Source: Lachnospiraceae bacterium (GTDB lineage: Bacteria > Bacillota > Clostridia > Lachnospirales > Lachnospiraceae). Taken from it: DNA of 64,000 nt. The notes beneath the pieces are model-generated. The model was not told where the DNA came from. It saw only the letters and a program-made list of their open reading frames with translations, and did not search any database. The stretch's first letter is position 1. Each line of letters opens with the position of its first letter. This document shows positions 1 to 64,000 of this stretch, in pieces. Both the position numbers and the translations under genes were made by a program. The stretch is from contig JAFQOW010000015.1 in assembly GCA_017412055.1 (NCBI GenBank), positions 77,602 through 141,601 of the forward strand, written 5' to 3'.

Positions 1-2
1 AT

Positions 3-170
3 ATGGATACAGAAAAAGTTTTAAAAATAATCAGTGAAGCGAAAAGTGTTGGTATTATGCTTGAGAGTGATATGCAGATTAACAAGCAGGATCAAAATAT
101 TATTAATGTAGTCAAGGTAATTAATAATTTGCTTGGAATGGCATTGGATAATTTTTCAAAGGATAAATAA
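3..170 (+). CDS. small hypothetical protein (56 aa)
   Basis: ATG at 3 to TAA at 168-170. Below the 60-aa cutoff of the ORF track. No recognisable motif, so coding status is uncertain. Confidence 0.25.
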   Translation: MDTEKVLKIISEAKSVGIMLESDMQINKQDQNIINVVKVINNLLGMALDNFSKDK

Positions 171-5800: not shown

Positions 5801-6850
5801 ATGGAATTAGAAGGAAGAAAACTTAAAATCCTTCAAGCAATTATTCGTAATTACTTAGATACTGGTGAACCTGTAGGTTCACGAACCATTTCAAAGTACA
5901 CCGACTTAAATCTTAGTCCGGCGACTATCCGAAATGAGATGGCTGATTTAGAAGAACTTGGATATATATTCCAGCCACATACATCAGCAGGAAGAATTCC
6001 TTCCGATAAGGGCTACAGATTATATGTAGACAATATGATGAAGGATAAAGAGCAGGAGCTTAAAGCTAGAGAAAAAGAAGTTGACGATATGCGTGAGTTT
6101 CTTAATGATAAGGTAGATAAAGTTGAAACCTTACTTAAGAATATGGCTAAGATGTTAGCGAATAACACTGATTACGCAGCGATGATTTCAGCGCCTCAGG
6201 CTCGAAAGAATAAGGTCAAATTTATTCAGTTATCACAGGTTGAAGATCACAGAATGCTTTGCGTAATAGTTCTTGAAGGTAATATTATTAAAAATAAAAT
6301 AATTAATGTAAAAGAAGACATTGATAATGAGACGTTACTAAAGCTCAACATATTGTTTAATAGTAGCTTGAATGGATTAACCTTAGAAGAGATAAATCTT
6401 GGAATTATTTCAAAGATGAATGGTCAGGCTGGTGAGCAGCTAGAGATTGCAAGAAGCGTGTTGGATGCTGTTGCAGAGGCCATAAGTACAGAAGACAATT
6501 TAGAGATTTATACAAGTGGTGCGACGAATATATTTAAGTACCCAGAGCTAAGTGATAATAATAAAGCCAAGGAGCTTATTAGCACATTCGAGGAAAAACA
6601 GCTCTTAACCACTCTTATAGAGATGGATAATGAGAATATAGAAACTGGTATAAGGGTTTATATCGGTGAAGAGACACCTGTTCATACTATGAAGGATTGT
6701 AGTGTTATAACGGCAACCTACGAATTGGAAGAAGGTGTACATGGTACTATAGGAATTATAGGACCAAAACGAATGGATTATGAGAAGGTTGTTGATACCT
6801 TAAAGAATATCAAGGACCAGTTAGATTCCGTATATAAGAAAAAGGAGTAA
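5801..6850 (+). CDS. hrcA: heat-inducible transcription repressor HrcA
   Basis: N-terminus MELEGRKLKILQAIIRNYLDTGEPVGSRTISK is typical of HrcA. Position is first gene of the dnaK operon behind CIRCE. AAGGAGG SD. Confidence 0.95.
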   Translation: MELEGRKLKILQAIIRNYLDTGEPVGSRTISKYTDLNLSPATIRNEMADLEELGYIFQPHTSAGRIPSDKGYRLYVDNMMKDKEQELKAREKEVDDMREFLNDKVDKVETLLKNMAKMLANNTDYAAMISAPQARKNKVKFIQLSQVEDHRMLCVIVLEGNIIKNKIINVKEDIDNETLLKLNILFNSSLNGLTLEEINLGIISKMNGQAGEQLEIARSVLDAVAEAISTEDNLEIYTSGATNIFKYPELSDNNKAKELISTFEEKQLLTTLIEMDNENIETGIRVYIGEETPVHTMKDCSVITATYELEEGVHGTIGIIGPKRMDYEKVVDTLKNIKDQLDSVYKKKE

Positions 6851-6864
6851 AGGAGGCGTATTAA

Positions 6865-7485
6865 GTGGCTAAGAAAGAAAAGACTAAAGCTGAAGAAGCA
6901 TTAAATCAAGAAGCTACTGTGGAGGATACAGCTACTGAAGCTGTGAGTGATGAGACAGTAGAAGCTACTGAGGAGAGTGCTGAGGATAAGGCAGAGGCAG
7001 AAAATGATGAGGCTGCATCAAATGAAGAACAGCCAGCAGAAAAGGATAAGAAGGATATTCTCATAGAGGAGCTTAATGACAAGTACATGAGAACATTTGC
7101 AGAGTTTGATAACTTCAGAAAGAGAAGTGAAAAGGAAAAGGCTGCAATGTTCGAAGTAGGTGCAAAGAGTATTATTGAGAAAATTCTTCCAATTGTAGAC
7201 AGCTTTGAGCGAGGCCTTGGAACATTAACAGAAGACGAGATTAAAGCTAATCCATTTGCAGACGGAATGGATAAGGTCTACAAACAGATGGTAAAGGCTC
7301 TTGAGGAAGTAGGAGTTACACCGATAGAAGCAGTAGGAAAGGAATTTGATCCAAATCTTCATAATGCAGTAATGCATGGAGATGACGAACAGTATGGTGA
7401 GAACATCATATCAGAAGAATTCCAAAAAGGATATATGTATCGTGACACAGTAGTTAGATATAGCATGGTAAAAGTTATTAATTAA
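6865..7485 (+). CDS. grpE: nucleotide exchange factor GrpE
   Basis: GTG start with AGGAGG SD at 6851-6856. Acidic N-terminus then the conserved GrpE core (FDNFRKRSEKE...ILPIVDSFERGL...GVTPIEAVGKEFDPNLHNAV). Confidence 0.95.
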   Translation: MAKKEKTKAEEALNQEATVEDTATEAVSDETVEATEESAEDKAEAENDEAASNEEQPAEKDKKDILIEELNDKYMRTFAEFDNFRKRSEKEKAAMFEVGAKSIIEKILPIVDSFERGLGTLTEDEIKANPFADGMDKVYKQMVKALEEVGVTPIEAVGKEFDPNLHNAVMHGDDEQYGENIISEEFQKGYMYRDTVVRYSMVKVIN

Positions 7486-7663
7486 GTGTTAAACAATGAG
7501 GAAAGAAATTAAGGCGTATGTGCTTGCACATAAAGAATTAATTTCTCGACGAATGTACAGTTTGAGCAATGTAGAGCGATAGCTCGAAATTGCGAAAGCT
7601 GCGAATGCGAGAGTTTCGAAGAAACGTAGCATTCGGTTAACACAGTTAAAGAGTTAAGAATAA

Positions 7664-21561: not shown

Positions 21562-21747
21562 GGTGTAACTAGAATTCTACGGATTGTTACGTGCTACGCA
21601 CTTTCACAATCCTACACAATATTCGTATATCGTGGAGCTAGCGCCCCACTTTTATACTCATATTGTGGCGTGTCAAGACGTCATATAACCACCTATGTGC
21701 AAGCACATGTGGTTAATGAGTTTTTGACACTGAAATCATCATAATAA

Positions 21748-27899: not shown

Positions 27900-27916
27900 A
27901 CAATGAGTCAAATAGA

Positions 27917-27964
27917 AAAGCTAGGATAAGCTTGTGCTCGCACAAAAGCTTATCCTAGCTTTTC
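27917..27964 (+). terminator. long hairpin terminator
   Basis: AAAGCTAGGATAAGCTTGTGctcgCACAAAAGCTTATCCTAGCTTTTc, a stem of about 20 bp. Confidence 0.65.
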
Positions 27965-27987
27965 TATTTGACGAATGTCCTCCATGA

Positions 27988-28124
27988 GTAACGAAGAGCG
28001 AAGCTCGAAGTTACGAATGGAGTCAACTGCGAAGCAGTTGGATTACACCATATGGTAGTAACGAAGAGCGAAGCTCGAAGTTACAAATGGAGGCAACTGC
28101 AAAGCAGTTGGTTTATACCATATG
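27988..28124 (+). repeat. two tandem 67-bp direct repeats (about 90% identical), each with an internal hairpin CAACTGCgaaGCAGTTG
   Basis: Copy 1 at 27988-28054 and copy 2 at 28058-28124. A related ~55-bp segment lies at 7543-7600. Confidence 0.8.
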
Positions 28125-47160: not shown

Positions 47161-47187
47161 CCCTCGGTCATAAGACCGAGGGTTTTT
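47161..47187 (+). terminator. rho-independent terminator of glgP
   Basis: CCCTCGGTCataaGACCGAGGGTTTTT. Confidence 0.85.
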
Positions 47188-47860
47188 GCATCTATCTCCC
47201 CTGCCATCACATTCCATTATATAATTCATATTATCGGAATTTTATAAATTATATGAAACGATTTTCTGCCATATACGTATATGACTGCGTACGAAGTATC
47301 CATCTATTTTTTACCGCCTCTCGAGGGTTCCGATGATTTGCTTATATGCCCCTCTTGATACTAAGGCTGTGTGTATTTTCGTTAAAAACACAACATAGCT
47401 AGTGGTGTTCACAGGACGCGGACAACGATTCGATTTTCTATTTTCAGTATCCCACACCAAAGAATGCTTATTATCCACCTGCCGCCATAACTCATCAGCT
47501 TGGCCGATTAACTCTCGCGCAGCGAGAGTAGCCAAGCTTCTTCAAACAGTATTCTGGCAGGTGGGCATTATCTTTGATGTGGGATGCTGAAAATTTAACG
47601 AAAATCTCCATATGTTGTCCGCCGTCCTGCGAACATCCACTTAGCTAAGGTTGTGTTTTATCGAAAATATCACACAGTAATAAACTTGTATCAAGAGGGC
47701 ATTTAGCAAATCACGGGTTCATCGAAACAGCGGTAAAAAGTAGATGGATATTCGTAGCAGTATTTTACTGTGTATAAGCAGAAAATCGTTATTTAATACA
47801 CATAATATTCCGATAATATGAATTATGAAAAGACAGATGGTGGCAGGGGGGATAGATGCA
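47188..47860. repeat. ~670-bp imperfect palindrome: inverted arms of ~335 bp each at ~75-80% identity, centred near 47524, relatively GC-rich
   Basis: Three segment pairs were checked by eye. rc(47730-47860) aligns to 47188-47318. rc(47545-47729) aligns to 47319-47490. The central ATAACTCATCAGCTTGGCCGATTAACTCTCGCGCagCGAGAGTAGCCAAGCTTCTTC is partly self-complementary. Confidence 0.8.
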
Positions 47861-47939
47861 AAAAAAGGTTGATATTTTGCCTGAGAAATATTAAAATACA
47901 ATAGTATTAATGTATATTCTGAACATTTGGAGGAAGCTA

Positions 47940-60633: not shown

Positions 60634-62499
60634 ATGAAGAGTAGTTTAAAATTAAAGAAGCTGTATGAATCAGCAGAATTTAAGAGTCACCATATATATG
60701 ATGGCAATGATCTTGGTGCAACTTATAAGGACGGAAATGCTATATTTAAAGTATGGGCACCGATTGCAGATAAGATTAGTGTAAATATATATGAAAAAGG
60801 AACTCCTAAGGAAGAGGGAGATAAGTTATTAGCTACAAAGCCTATGACAAAGGGCGATAAGAGTGTATATCAGTGTGTAGTAGATAATTTAGGTGACCTT
60901 CACGGAAAATTTTACACATACGTTATCGAAACTGATGGTGAATCTGTAGAGACAGCAGATCCATACTGTGTGGCTTGCGGTGCTAACAGTATGCGTTCAA
61001 TGGTAGTTGATTTATCAAAAACAAATCCAGAAGGCTGGGAAAATGATAAGAAGCCTTCTATTCCACTTGAGGAAGCTGTAATATATGAAACTCATGTTAA
61101 GGATTTTTCATATGATGAGAATTCGGGTGTGTCAGAAGAAAAGCGTGGAAAGTATATTGCATTTACAGAGGATGACACTTATTATACAGCAGAAAATGGA
61201 GATAAATATCCAACATGTGTCAATTATTTAAAGCAATTAGGTGTAACATATGTACATTTGCTTCCTATAGCAGATTCTGGCTCAGTAGATGAGGCAGAGG
61301 CATATTATAATCCTGGTGACCAGTTTAACTGGGGATATGACCCTATGTTATACAATGTTCCTGAAGGATATTATTCTACAAACCCTTTTGATGGAACTGT
61401 TCGTATCAATGAGATGAAGCAGCTTGTCATGGCACTTCATAAGGCTGGAATCGGTGTAGTTATGGATGTGGTTTACAATCACACATATCACACAGATAAT
61501 CCACTTCATCACACAGCGCCATACTATTATCATAGAATAGATGAGAATGGTAATTTTTCAAATGCTTCAGGCTGTGGTAATGAAACAGCCAGTGAGCATG
61601 AGATGTATAGAAACTTTATGGTAAATTCTATTCTTTATTGGGCTAAGGAATACCATATTGATGGATTTAGATTTGATTTAATGGGTATTCATGATACAGA
61701 GACAATGAATGCTATTAGAACTGCATTAAATAAGCTTCCAAATGGAGAAAAAATTCTTCTCTACGGTGAGCCTTGGACAGCAGGTCCTACAGCTATGGCA
61801 GAAGGCTTTATTAGCTCTGTAACAGCCAATGCAGAGCATCTTATGGATGGTATATTTATATTCAGTGATACTATAAGAGATGCTGTAAAGGGTAGCGTAT
61901 TCGAGGCAGATGAGCCAGCGTATATTAACAGTACAGTGGAGGGCGCTAAAGCATTTGTTGATGAATTAAAGAAGGCTATTACATTGCCAAATCGTATAAC
62001 TTATGTATCAGCACATGATAATTTTACATTATATGATAAGCTTCTTATGTCAGTGGAATCAGAAAAAGAAGAGACTGTGGAAGCTGTGAAGAAGTATGGT
62101 AAGGGCACACCAAATGATGCATTTGCTCGCAAGGAAAATATCGCTAAAATCAATAAGATGGCGGCAGGTATTTATATGACAGCAGCAGGCATTCCATTCT
62201 TTCAGGCAGGAGAAGAGTTCTTAAGAACAAAGTATGGTGAAGATGACAGCTATAAGTCATCAGCTAAAATAAATATGCTTGATTGGAAGAGAGCATATGA
62301 GAATAAAGATATAGTAGAGTATTATGCTAATCTTATTAAAATTAGAAAAGAGCACAAGGAATTATTCCATATGTCAGATAATGGCGGTGCATCAGTTGAG
62401 TTTAAAGCAGCTGATGAACCTAAAGTTGAATTTGTAGTGGATAAAAAGGTGGAGGTGGTGTATAATCCATCTGAGGCTTGTGTCGAGATTAAAGCATAA
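60634..62499 (+). CDS. type I pullulanase (GH13_14-like)
   Basis: N-terminal CBM48-like region (GATYKDGNAIFKVWAP). Catalytic regions GVVMDVVYNHTY, GFRFDLMG, YVSAHDN. AAGGAG SD. Confidence 0.8.
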   Translation: MKSSLKLKKLYESAEFKSHHIYDGNDLGATYKDGNAIFKVWAPIADKISVNIYEKGTPKEEGDKLLATKPMTKGDKSVYQCVVDNLGDLHGKFYTYVIETDGESVETADPYCVACGANSMRSMVVDLSKTNPEGWENDKKPSIPLEEAVIYETHVKDFSYDENSGVSEEKRGKYIAFTEDDTYYTAENGDKYPTCVNYLKQLGVTYVHLLPIADSGSVDEAEAYYNPGDQFNWGYDPMLYNVPEGYYSTNPFDGTVRINEMKQLVMALHKAGIGVVMDVVYNHTYHTDNPLHHTAPYYYHRIDENGNFSNASGCGNETASEHEMYRNFMVNSILYWAKEYHIDGFRFDLMGIHDTETMNAIRTALNKLPNGEKILLYGEPWTAGPTAMAEGFISSVTANAEHLMDGIFIFSDTIRDAVKGSVFEADEPAYINSTVEGAKAFVDELKKAITLPNRITYVSAHDNFTLYDKLLMSVESEKEETVEAVKKYGKGTPNDAFARKENIAKINKMAAGIYMTAAGIPFFQAGEEFLRTKYGEDDSYKSSAKINMLDWKRAYENKDIVEYYANLIKIRKEHKELFHMSDNGGASVEFKAADEPKVEFVVDKKVEVVYNPSEACVEIKA

Positions 62500-62507
62500 T
62501 GTAGGTT

Positions 62508-62535
62508 TAAACCCTCGCCCTGTCGGCGAGGGTTT
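62508..62535 (+). terminator. rho-independent terminator after the pullulanase gene
   Basis: AAACCCTCGCCctgtcGGCGAGGGTTTT. Confidence 0.85.
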
Positions 62536-62900
62536 TATATGTGTTGGATAAGAATTTCAGAATCAAACGCTTTGTTAATTATATTTAGTCATTTTATAAG
62601 CTCTATGCTGTCTTTTCACATGCTACAAATATATGATTTTCTAAATACTTTGATTTAGGTTAATAATATAGAACGTGACCGGCGCCTATTCGCCATCCAT
62701 GGCTCAGAGACGCCTTATTCCAACATCGTGTTGGAATATCACTAGTTGAGAGCAAAGTATTAAGAAAATCTATATATTCTTCGCTATCGTGAAAGTGACA
62801 GCATAAAGTTATAAAATAACTAATTAAAACTTTTTATAAAGCGTTTGATTCTGAAATTCTTAATGGAATATATAAAACCCTGCCGACAGAGCTAGGGTTT
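62508..62900. repeat. ~390-bp imperfect palindrome with a terminator-like hairpin at each end
   Basis: AAGAATTTCAGAATCAAACGCTTT (62551-62574) is perfectly inverted at 62840-62863. The inner arms are inverted at ~75% identity. A second hairpin AAAACCCTgccgacagagcTAGGGTTTT at 62873-62900 is roughly the reverse complement of the 62508 terminator. Confidence 0.8.
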
Positions 62901-62912
62901 TAAGAAGTGAGT

Positions 62913-64000
62913 AGGAGTGCAGGATGAGACAGATTTGGATGTATATGAAAAATTATAAAAAGGAGACGGTGCTGGCACCTTTATTTAAGATGCTTGAGGC
63001 GTGCTTTGAGCTTTGTGTACCTCTTGTTATAGCTGGTCTTACAGATGTAGGTATTAGGAATGGTGACAAGGGATATATCGCAAAGATGGGACTTGTGCTT
63101 TTTGTACTTGCGGCTATAGGTTTTTGCTGCTCAGTGGTGGCACAGTTTTTCTCTGCAAGAGCAGCTGTAGGTGTGGCTACAAAGCTTAGACATAATCTAT
63201 TTAAGCATATTGAGAGCTTTTCATTTACTGAGATTGATAAGGTGGGAACATCTACGCTTATTACCAGAATGACCAGTGACGTTAATCAGGTTCAGTCTGG
63301 TGTAAATATGCTTCTTAGACTGTTCCTTCGTTCGCCGTTTATTGTATTTGGTGCTATGGTTATGGCATTTACTATAGATGTGAAATCAGCACTTATATTT
63401 GTGGTAACTATAATTGTATTGTTGATAGTTGTATTTGCCATTATTTTGTATACGATTCCAATGTATAAGAGAGTACAGAGCGCACTTGATAGAGTACTTG
63501 GAATTACGAGAGAGAATCTTACTGGTGCCAGAGTCATCAGAGCCTTTGGTATGGAAGATGAGGAGATAGAAGAATATGATAACAGGACTTCGCTTTTATT
63601 TAAGCTTCAGGTAGCTGTAGGTAGAATATCAGCACTGATGAATCCTGTTACTTTATTTATAATAAATTTAGCAACTATAATTTTGATTTGGACTGGTGGT
63701 ATTCAGGTAAATGATGGAAGACTTAGCCAGGGTGAGGTTATAGCCCTTGTTAACTATATGTCACAGATTTTGGTAGAGCTTGTAAAGCTTGCGAACTTGA
63801 TTGTAACCCTTACTAAGGCAGTAGCTTGTGGCAATAGAATAGAGGGTATCTTTGACATTCAGTCTACATTGGAATTAAAGGATATTATTGAAAATGAAAC
63901 TAAAGATAATAAGGATATATCGTCAAGTGAATATGCCATAGAATATGATAATGTATCTATAAAGTATAGTGGTTCACAAGAGGAAGCAATGAAGGATGTA
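62913..64000 (+). CDS. ABC transporter permease/ATP-binding protein (type I exporter, MsbA-like), 5' portion; runs off the window
   Basis: ATG at 62913 with GGAG SD. Six TM helices of an ABC exporter TMD. The ORF is open to the window end. Confidence 0.8.

What the first reader, a model, noticed from the sequence alone, without database searches (positions are those of the whole stretch)
62508..62900. Second long imperfect palindrome (~390 bp) incorporating the pullulanase terminator and a mirrored terminator-like hairpin
AAGAATTTCAGAATCAAACGCTTT is perfectly inverted about 290 bp downstream, and the sequence between is itself palindromic. The 3' hairpin AAAACCCTgccgacagagcTAGGGTTTT is roughly the reverse complement of the 5' terminator hairpin. 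The element would therefore act as a terminator for transcription arriving from either side, and it may have arisen by inverted duplication around a terminator. It sits directly upstream of an ABC exporter gene.
Basis: seen in the sequence. Interest (0 to 1): 0.6.

Follow-up and report, generated by a model that had tools for sequence, protein, structure and literature searches.

The report
TwoAYGGAY hairpin repeat with mirrored terminator
The 400-bp palindrome is a copy of a known but uncharacterised hairpin-forming repeat of gut Lachnospiraceae (the TwoAYGGAY RNA motif), inserted between two genes and extended here by a mirror copy of the upstream gene's terminator; the copy is ordinary, but the family looks more like an interspersed palindromic repeat than a classical small-RNA gene.

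Summary
Positions 62506-62903 form a 398-bp imperfect palindrome (arms 125/144 complementary; fold z-scores -16 and -20). It is not a home-made terminator duplication. Its apex (62620-62786, minus strand) matches Rfam TwoAYGGAY (RF01731) at 129.8 bits against a threshold of 43.

In 100 Lachnospiraceae copies the known 168-nt motif always tops a 226-441-bp palindrome, so the long stem is a family trait. Copies are multi-copy per genome, intergenic and randomly oriented relative to neighbouring genes. They show no promoter or terminator of their own and no recurrent neighbouring gene. None was found in phage or plasmid collections.

At this locus the element is dispensable and derived. Two sister lineages have only the terminator in a 65-71-bp spacer, and two of three outgroups have overlapping genes. 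Only the outer 35 bp on each side is terminator-derived, and the right hairpin is an inverted copy of the left one.

The arms co-evolve between orthologues. The apical helices covary almost without G-U pairs. My best reading is a non-autonomous palindromic interspersed repeat. A CsrA-type protein-binding sRNA remains a rival. It is a new member of a known kind, of modest interest.

The parts
60634..62499 (+). Type I pullulanase gene (context; upstream neighbour)
   Evidence: ORF list; Pfam CBM_48 + Alpha-amylase on the identical protein; homologues named type I pullulanase
62509..62535 (+). Native intrinsic terminator of the pullulanase gene (h1): 11-bp stem with 7 G-C pairs, followed by a T-run
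   Evidence: Terminator scan. The same hairpin is the only element in the 65-71-bp spacer of the empty sister loci L127 and L128
62506..62540 (.). Outer left arm of the palindrome (terminator plus TTTTATAT)
   Evidence: Inverted-repeat pairs I3 and I9; 31/35 identity to the reverse complement of 62870-62903
62870..62903 (.). Outer right arm (h2): a degenerate inverted copy of the pullulanase terminator, terminator-like on the minus strand
   Evidence: In the orthologous element L129, h2 likewise mirrors that lineage's own, different h1
62549..62862 (-). TwoAYGGAY element proper, a 314-bp palindromic unit of the usual size for the family
   Evidence: Family spans are 226-441 bp. In 12/100 copies a terminal 17-mer lies about 160 and 150 nt from the apex, the same distance as this copy's ends. 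Paralogue alignment
62549..62578 (.).
   Evidence: Pair I1: 30 nt, 93% complementary; exact 24-mer pair
62833..62862 (.). Right terminal inverted repeat of the unit; contains the inverted 24-mer (62838-62861)
62620..62786 (-). Match to Rfam RF01731 TwoAYGGAY, full length (model positions 1-168)
   Evidence: 129.8 bits against a gathering score of 43, E 2.6e-25, with no comparable hit on the + strand
62716..62738 (-). Apical hairpin P2: 10-bp stem with loop CACGAUG, a variant that lacks the GGA
   Evidence: Cmscan alignment. The same loop occurs in 40/100 family copies, and P2 shows 3-4 Watson-Crick pair types per position
62681..62714 (-). Apical hairpin P3: outer 7-bp stem, tandem G-A internal loop (CUGA/GAAU), inner GCC/GGC stem, and loop AUGGAU (62695-62700 on +)
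   Evidence: Cmscan alignment; register and pair counts
62925..64000 (+). Start of the ABC exporter gene (runs off the window), with RBS AGGAG at 62912-62916; downstream neighbour
   Evidence: Sequence; gene call with ABC_membrane + ABC_tran on identical contigs

Best explanation
The palindrome is one copy of the TwoAYGGAY element. This is a roughly 250-320-bp hairpin-forming interspersed repeat of Lachnospiraceae chromosomes, and its conserved apex is what Rfam models as the TwoAYGGAY RNA.

Shown: the copy was acquired at the junction of an ancestrally contiguous pullulanase/ABC-exporter gene pair. It is dispensable. It carries no detectable promoter or terminator of its own. It lies antisense to both neighbouring genes.

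Shown: the long stem is the family's closing helix. The arms differ between copies but stay complementary within each copy, and they co-evolve between orthologues.

Inferred: pairing is maintained by arm-to-arm gene conversion, by template switching, or by selection for a hairpin on whichever strand is exposed. It is not maintained by strand-specific RNA selection. The same process has extended this copy outward, so that an inverted copy of the pullulanase terminator now sits on the far side.

Inferred: the element behaves as a non-autonomous palindromic repeat, comparable to MITE or ERIC elements. Its asymmetric apex, a three-way junction with two G+C-rich hairpins, would be the recognition module for an unknown trans-acting factor acting on a single strand. 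At this locus the expected effect is a strong structural and termination barrier between the two genes.
For: Identity: the Rfam match scores 129.8 bits. All 22 tested relatives, including the orthologue L129, score 100-136 bits.

The long stem is family-wide. In about 100 copies the enclosing hairpins span 226-441 bp. Weinberg 2010 already noted that P1 is 'often very large'.

Repeat-like behaviour:
- A strict pattern found 119+ stretches, almost all in Lachnospiraceae, with 4-9 or more per MAG or genome.
- Core sequences align in 71% of copy pairs, but arms align in only 4%.
- Orientation relative to neighbouring genes is random: ++ 25, -- 26, +- 9, -+ 7.
- A terminator lies downstream on the sense strand in only 3/98 copies; the flanking terminators that do occur point into the element.
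- Promoter-like sites show no sense-over-antisense excess.
- No neighbouring protein family recurs.
- A 145-bp palindrome in L058 has the same termini but no apex.
- In 12/100 copies both arms carry the 17-mer GATTCGGGTGTCAAAAG at a fixed distance from the apex.

Acquired and dispensable: sister lineages L127 and L128 are empty. In outgroups L141 and L142 the two genes overlap, and L140 has an unrelated 139-bp spacer.

Arm co-evolution: between the window and L129 there are 15 sites where both arms changed together, concentrated in the outer arms. My rough independence estimate, not a tool output, expects fewer than about 1-2 such sites.

No RNA-type wobble signal: arm mismatches are G-U 188 against A-C 202. 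P2 and P3 together hold about 1568 Watson-Crick pairs, 9 G-U pairs and about 8 true A-C pairs. tRNAs from the same loci have 162 Watson-Crick, 10 G-U and 0 A-C pairs.
Against: No target-site duplication is visible. No near-identical paralogues were found; the best within-genome arm identity is about 90% over about 95 nt, so recent transposition is not shown. No transposase was found.

The apex is conserved across genera, with strand-specific features: AYGGAY-type loops and a tandem G-A. That is what a functional RNA would look like.

A weak excess of G-U over A-C on the strand transcribed with the neighbouring genes (++ 81/53, -- 71/86) could reflect RNA-level selection, or only compositional skew.

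The tRNA control is small (8 tRNAs). At this locus the occupancy pattern needs two or more events, and gain, loss and recombinational transfer cannot be separated. There are no expression data.
Confidence: 0.55

Rival explanations
1. It is a genuine trans-acting small RNA gene. The minus-strand transcript folds into a long rod, and its apical GGA-type loops sequester an RNA-binding protein. CsrA was proposed by Gardner & Eldai (2015). The multiple copies per genome would be paralogous sponge genes, like the multiple Rsm sRNAs.
For: The Rfam match is strong and the apical hairpins covary. Loop 2 is GCCAUGGAUGGC. The RMfam paper reports two strong CsrA-motif matches in this family. csrA is present in the flagellar loci of motile Eubacterium and Roseburia species. 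The apex is conserved across genera while the arms drift.
Against: Loop 1 of this copy, and of 44/100 relatives, is CACGAUG or CACGACG with no GGA. No dedicated promoter or terminator signal was found. Orientation relative to neighbours is random and the intergenic fit is tight. G-U pairs are almost absent. The element is dispensable in sister lineages. A stem of about 150 bp of near-perfect duplex would be an RNase III substrate (my inference). The CsrA link has never been tested in the held literature.
Confidence: 0.25
2. It is a locally evolved bidirectional terminator or insulator, made by inverted duplication of the pullulanase terminator region.
For: h1 is a good + strand terminator and h2 is terminator-like on the - strand. 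h2 is an inverted copy of h1. Four terminator-like sites were found in the region against 0.4 expected.
Against: The inner 314 bp is homologous to 100+ elements at unrelated loci. Only 2/100 copies have mirrored terminators. Both neighbouring genes are on +, so nothing needs a minus-strand terminator. The empty sister sites manage with h1 alone.
Confidence: 0.05
3. It is a cis-regulatory leader or attenuator of the downstream ABC exporter operon.
For: It lies directly upstream of the exporter's RBS. Rfam labels the family 'Cis-reg'.
Against: The Rfam strand is antisense to the exporter gene. Across the family, orientation relative to the downstream gene is random. Weinberg 2010 scored the motif as not cis-regulatory. 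Downstream genes are unrelated between copies.
Confidence: 0.03
4. It is a single-stranded-DNA mobile element of the IS200/IS605-PATE or REPIN type, mobilised by an HUH (Y1) transposase that recognises the folded apex.
For: Covariation uses Watson-Crick pairs only. The element is palindromic, multi-copy, intergenic and often next to terminators. The Psychromonas copies are embedded among REP-like repeats.
Against: Orientation shows no bias relative to co-directional genes, which serve as a proxy for replication direction (25 against 26). No Y1 transposase-like family recurs within about 4 kb. The elements are far longer than known REP or PATE hairpins (own knowledge).
Confidence: 0.1

Closest known systems
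TwoAYGGAY RNA motif (Rfam RF01731; Weinberg et al. 2010)
   Same: Full-length covariance-model match at 129.8 bits. Same three-way-junction apex, AUGGAU loop on P3, tandem G-A internal loop and long closing P1. Same taxa (Clostridiales and the gut).
   Different: Loop 1 is CACGAUG rather than AYGGAY. The closing stem runs about 115 nt beyond the Rfam model on each side. The outer 35 bp is a mirrored host terminator, seen in only 2/100 copies.
ERIC/IRU, Correia and bcr1-type intergenic palindromic repeats or MITEs (own knowledge of the literature)
   Same: Imperfect palindromes of 100-400 bp. Multi-copy, intergenic, found in either orientation, co-transcribed with neighbours, with presence/absence polymorphism and pairing preserved by correlated changes.
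   Different: No target-site duplication and no known transposase. A terminal sequence is conserved only in a subfamily. There is a large, conserved, asymmetric apex with its own covarying hairpins.
CsrB/RsmZ-type CsrA-sequestering sRNAs
   Same: GGA in a hairpin loop resembling the CsrA SELEX consensus. Several copies per genome.
   Different: This copy has only one GGA loop. It has no promoter or terminator of its own and sits in a rod-like 400-nt palindrome. No binding has been tested.
REPIN/RAYT systems and IS200/IS605 PATEs
   Same: Hairpin-forming non-autonomous repeats in intergenic DNA whose arms keep their pairing.
   Different: Ten times longer than these; no RAYT or TnpA found nearby; no orientation bias.

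Membership tests
TwoAYGGAY (RF01731) | Covariance-model score above the curated gathering score (43 bits) | tested here: met
   129.8 bits, model positions 1-168, minus strand
TwoAYGGAY (RF01731) | AYGGAY in the terminal loop of the second hairpin (P3) | tested here: met
   GCCAUGGAUGGC; loop at 62695-62700 on +
TwoAYGGAY (RF01731) | AYGGAY in the terminal loop of the first hairpin (P2) | tested here: not met
   The loop is CACGAUG, one G short. The same variant occurs in 40/100 Lachnospiraceae copies, all of which pass the Rfam threshold where tested
TwoAYGGAY (RF01731) | Large P1 stem closing the structure | tested here: met
   The hairpin spans 398 bp with arms 125/144 complementary; described by Weinberg
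TwoAYGGAY (RF01731) | Tandem G-A in one apical stem | tested here: met
   CUGA/GAAU flanks the inner P3 stem; feature noted in PMC4333381
MITE-like interspersed repeat | Terminal inverted repeats | tested here: met
   30-nt arms, 93% complementary, at 62549-62578 and 62833-62862. A conserved terminal 17-mer is present in only 12/100 copies
MITE-like interspersed repeat | Target-site duplication (direct repeat) at the ends | tested here: not met
   The flanking hairpins match better in inverted than in direct orientation. No short direct repeat is visible at either boundary
MITE-like interspersed repeat | Many copies per genome at unrelated loci | tested here: met
   4-9 or more copies per MAG or genome with the strict pattern. 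The window's own genome holds one copy in 64 kb
MITE-like interspersed repeat | Empty and occupied alleles at orthologous sites | tested here: met
   Occupied: window, L126, L129. Empty: L127, L128 and outgroups L140-L142
MITE-like interspersed repeat | Cognate transposase with matching ends | tested here: inconclusive
   No protein family recurs within about 4 kb of 119 loci. Whole genomes could not be searched
CsrA-sequestering sRNA | Several GGA motifs presented in loops | tested here: not met
   Only loop 2 carries GGA in this copy
CsrA-sequestering sRNA | Own promoter and intrinsic terminator | tested here: not met
CsrA-sequestering sRNA | Binds CsrA; csrA present in the same genome | not testable with these tools
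   The only available fact is that motile Eubacterium and Roseburia species carry csrA
Bidirectional intrinsic terminator | G+C-rich hairpin with a U-tract on both strands, placed between convergent genes | tested here: not met
   The hairpins exist, but both neighbouring genes are on the + strand

The most novel reading that the evidence does not exclude
TwoAYGGAY may not be a conventional RNA gene at all. It may be a previously unrecognised class of palindromic, non-autonomous DNA element in Lachnospiraceae. On this reading the conserved three-way-junction apex is read in single-stranded form. The 100-190-bp arms are kept complementary by arm-to-arm conversion and can grow outward by copying flanking DNA, here capturing the pullulanase terminator in inverted form. 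The almost G-U-free covariation would be the signature of folding at the DNA level or on both strands.
Probability: 0.3. Interest if true: 0.6.

Novelty: new member of a known kind. Interest (0 to 1): 0.38.

Why it matters
At the level of this locus, the finding is explained by an existing Rfam family and does not need to be treated as a new feature.

At the level of the family, TwoAYGGAY has been an orphan motif since 2010, and its only functional proposal (a CsrA sponge) is untested. The comparisons made here show several things:
- The modelled 168 nt is only the tip of a 230-440-bp palindrome.
- Copies lack transcription signals of their own.
- Copies insert in either orientation.
- Copies come and go between close lineages.
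- The helices covary almost without wobble pairs.

If these results hold up, annotation pipelines and microbiome studies that count TwoAYGGAY as an sRNA would be counting an interspersed repeat. The family would also become a tractable case for how long palindromes are maintained and extended in bacterial chromosomes.

Tried and rejected
- Rfam on the sister palindrome 47184-47864 gave no hit at E<=1. It has no relative in about 1 Mb of fetched loci, so the two palindromes are not the same family.
- The core pattern was not found in viral contigs, and distant blastn of the element against the phage and plasmid collections found nothing. It is not phage- or plasmid-borne.
- All-against-all blastp of 1015 neighbouring ORFs found no transposase or other recurrent partner.
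- The terminator and promoter scans, oriented on the Rfam strand, found no signals belonging to the element.
- Reading the flanking hairpins as a target-site duplication was rejected, because the loops match in inverted orientation in two lineages.
- G-U against A-C asymmetry was tried as a strand and RNA test. There is none on the Rfam strand. The weak excess on the host-transcribed strand could be compositional skew, so I do not rely on it.
I report this as a hint, not a finding.
- The metagenome scan for the subfamily inner-arm 20-mer gave only 10 loci. Seven have a core in new contexts, and none is near-identical to this copy.
- Gain and loss at this locus could not be separated, because the four lineages are nearly equidistant.

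Full report
**1. Observation**

The region was read directly. Five collinear inverted-repeat pairs nest around a centre near 62704, from 62506-62535/62874-62903 inward to 62635-62669/62736-62770. A local alignment of the left arm with the reverse complement of the right arm gives 125/144 matches over a 398-bp span.

As single strands, both strands fold into one long rod. The minimum free energy is -167 kcal/mol (z -15.8) on + and -178 kcal/mol (z -20.4) on -. The left hairpin, 62509-62535, is a canonical intrinsic terminator directly after the pullulanase stop codon at 62499. The right hairpin scores as a weaker terminator on the minus strand. It matches the left one better in inverted orientation (31/35) than in direct orientation (27/35, gapped).

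**2. What it is**

A scan of the whole window against Rfam places the apex of the palindrome, 62620-62786 on the minus strand, in RF01731 TwoAYGGAY. The score is 129.8 bits against a gathering score of 43, over the full model.

The alignment shows the family's three-way junction. P2 is 62716-62738 and P3 is 62681-62714. P3 carries the tandem G-A internal loop (CUGA/GAAU) and the AUGGAU loop. Loop 1 is CACGAUG, one G short of AYGGAY.

The motif was described by Weinberg et al. 2010 as probably an RNA, neither cis-regulatory nor a riboswitch. Their supplement remarks that the closing P1 stem "is often very large". Gardner & Eldai 2015 proposed, without testing, that it is a CsrA-binding sRNA. 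I found no experimental work on it in the held literature.

**3. The long stem is a family trait**

One scan of 185,579 species genomes used a strict core pattern: AG-N10-GCCAYGGAYGGC-N10-CGG-N3-CGT. Almost all are in Lachnospiraceae, with 4-9 or more stretches per MAG or genome. Examples are Hespellia sp., Eubacterium sp. MSJ-21, Coprococcus hominis and a fecal MAG closest to the window. All 22 copies that I re-tested against Rfam score 100-136 bits.

Folding 840 nt around each copy, or aligning its flanks as inverted repeats, shows that the 168-nt motif always tops a palindrome of 226-441 bp. The arms are 75-90% complementary. The window's copy, at 398 bp, lies in the upper tail.

Core sequences of different copies align in 71% of pairs, but arms align in only 4%. 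Within the window's own subfamily, homology between paralogues covers about 240-250 nt, that is, the core plus the inner arms. The outer arms are locus-specific, yet each is still palindromic.

In 12 of 100 copies both arms carry the same 17-mer, GATTCGGGTGTCAAAAG. It sits at a fixed distance from the apex, about 160 nt on the 5' side and 150 nt on the 3' side. The unit proper in the window is therefore about 62549-62862 (314 bp).

**4. It does not look like a self-standing gene**

The following tests were oriented on the Rfam strand.
- Neighbouring genes are ++ in 25 copies, -- in 26, convergent in 9 and divergent in 7.
- Only 3/98 copies have an intrinsic terminator downstream on the sense strand. 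The flanking terminators that do exist point into the element, so they belong to the neighbouring genes.
- Sigma-70-like promoter matches are no better on the sense side than on the antisense side, either outside or inside the arms.
- No protein family recurs nearby.
- The family was not found in 2.9 million viral contigs with the core pattern, and the element has no match in the phage and plasmid collections.
- A 145-bp palindrome in Maccoyibacter carries the same termini but no apex.

In the window the Rfam strand is antisense to both neighbouring genes.

**5. History of this locus**

Homologues of the pullulanase gave the orthologous loci.

| Locus | Pullulanase aa identity to window | State of the junction |
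|---|---|---|
| L127 | 92% | Empty: stop, terminator, about 10 nt, RBS, ATG; 65-71-bp spacer |
| L128 | 89% | Empty, same layout as L127 |
| L129 | 88% | Occupied by a homologous element (114 bits) |
| L141, L142 (outgroups) | 72-73% | Pullulanase and exporter gene calls overlap |
| L140 (outgroup) | 75% | Unrelated 139-bp spacer with its own terminator |

The element is therefore a derived insertion into an ancestrally contiguous gene pair, and it is dispensable. The four close lineages are nearly equidistant at 85-86% nucleotide identity, with L128 and L129 slightly closer at 88.6%. At least two events are therefore needed, and I cannot separate gain, loss and transfer by recombination. L006 has a pullulanase gene identical to the window's but an L129-type terminator and outer arm. 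This shows recombination exactly at this junction.

**6. The arms co-evolve**

I made a four-way alignment of the left arm and the reverse-complemented right arm of the window and of L129. It has 15 sites where both arms of one lineage differ together from both arms of the other, and these lie mostly in the outer arms. Another 15 sites are arm-to-arm mismatches shared by both lineages, and these lie mostly in the inner arms covered by the Rfam model. Under independent change at the observed single-site rate I estimate fewer than about 1-2 joint sites; this is my own rough calculation, not a tool result.

In both lineages the right terminal hairpin mirrors that lineage's own left terminator, although the two terminators differ by an indel. 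Mirrored terminators at the palindrome ends occur in only two of 100 copies, the window and L113. Those two are among the longest, and in both the extra copy is the more degenerate one. I infer that it arose by outward extension or homogenisation of an existing palindrome. Intramolecular template switching or arm-to-arm conversion are established mechanisms for quasi-palindromes; they are not demonstrated here.

**7. RNA or DNA?**

The apical helices covary strongly, with three to four Watson-Crick pair types at most P2 positions. Wobble pairs are almost absent.

| Structure | Watson-Crick | G-U | A-C | Note |
|---|---|---|---|---|
| P2 | 941 | 3 | 35 | 32 of the A-C count are one loop-closing position |
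| P3 | 627 | 6 | 5 | |
| Eight distinct tRNAs from the same loci (control) | 162 | 10 | 0 | |
| Arms beyond the Rfam model | 4815 | 188 | 202 | Counted on the Rfam strand |

When the arm mismatches are split by neighbour orientation, there is a weak excess of G-U on the host-transcribed strand (++ 81/53, -- 71/86). This could be selection on read-through transcripts or simply compositional skew. These numbers argue against ordinary strand-specific RNA selection. They are compatible with pairing that must hold on both strands or in DNA. However, the control is small and the arm alignments are crude.

The strand-specific apex (AYGGAY-type loops, tandem G-A) still indicates that one single strand, RNA or DNA, is read by something.

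**8. Verdict on mechanism**

Best supported, at about 0.55: a non-autonomous palindromic interspersed repeat, comparable to MITE or ERIC elements. The TwoAYGGAY motif is its apex. The arms are kept complementary by conversion or two-strand constraint. The local consequence is a large structural and termination barrier between the pullulanase and exporter genes.

What is shown:
- the identity of the element;
- the family-wide palindrome;
- multi-copy distribution, random orientation and absence of transcription signals of its own;
- insertion polymorphism;
- arm co-evolution.

What is inferred:
- how the arms are maintained;
- the capture of the terminator;
- the role of the apex.

The main rival, at about 0.25, is a real protein-binding sRNA. 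Against it for CsrA specifically, loop 1 lacks GGA in this copy and in 44/100 relatives. A cis-regulatory leader of the exporter is contradicted by strand and context (about 0.03). A single-stranded-DNA element of the IS200/REPIN type remains possible (about 0.1). It lacks the expected orientation bias and any transposase nearby.

**9. Novelty**

The feature belongs to a family described in 2010, and its large P1 stem was noted then. This copy is a new member with two local peculiarities: a stem about 115 nt longer on each side than the Rfam model, and a mirrored host terminator. Interest in the locus itself is low. The family-level observations are, as far as the held literature shows, not published, and they would change how this orphan motif is interpreted if confirmed. 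Overall interest is modest.

Noticed in passing
window 47184-47864: A second, larger rod-like imperfect palindrome of 681 bp. RNA minimum free energy is -374 kcal/mol (+) and -368 kcal/mol (-), z -29 and -24. It begins right after a terminator (47161-47187) and is bounded by T5 and A7. It has no Rfam match at E<=1 and no relative in about 1 Mb of fetched Lachnospiraceae loci, so it is not a TwoAYGGAY element and remains unexplained.
   Followed up: partly
window 7485-7644 (+), 21571-21738 (-), 27904-28047 (+): Three Clostridiales-1 RNA (RF01699) copies lie in the same 64 kb. One contains 30-bp arms that are 97% complementary (27907-27936 / 27943-27972). Together with the two long palindromes, this window is unusually dense in hairpin-type repeats.
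   Followed up: no
L009, L019, L024, L030, L033, L057, L073, L094 (e.g. L019 5867-6032 minus and 6232-6396 plus): Several genomes carry two TwoAYGGAY copies back to back on opposite strands, 370-870 bp apart. In L033 and L094 the paired arrangement is conserved between two MAGs.
   Followed up: no
L058 3667-3812: A palindrome of about 145 bp has the same termini (GATCAGGGTGTCAAAAG...) and arm-like sequence as TwoAYGGAY elements but no apex. It is either a core-less derivative or the kind of hairpin into which the apex inserts.
   Followed up: partly
L004, L005, L126 (contig ends): Three independent Logan assemblies all stop 216 nt after the pullulanase stop codon. That corresponds to about window position 62715, roughly 10 nt from the palindrome centre. 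Short-read unitigs appear to break inside this element, so it may be under-represented in such assemblies.
   Followed up: no
L006 3039-3165 compared with window 62500-62655: This contig has a pullulanase gene 100% identical in DNA to the window's, but its terminator and outer arm are of the type seen in the 85%-identical lineage L129. There is a recombination breakpoint right at the end of the gene.
   Followed up: partly
window 62438-62466 (+): A promoter-like site, TGGATA-17-TATAAT (10/12), lies inside the 3' end of the pullulanase gene, upstream of the terminator and the exporter gene. In two of three outgroups the two genes overlap, so how the exporter is transcribed in terminator-bearing lineages is an open question.
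   Followed up: no
Psychromonas ingrahamii NC_008709, in Weinberg's alignment (paper supplement): At least five gammaproteobacterial TwoAYGGAY copies have ACAUGGAUGU loops and are followed by REP-like repeated hairpins (GUAACACGCCGUCAGGGCGGAAGACC...). There too the motif lies within repetitive DNA.
   Followed up: no
L001 16773-18285: On contigs identical to the window, a gene with an AbiEii toxin domain and a small upstream ORF lie about 5 kb downstream of the element, beyond the window's end.
   Followed up: no
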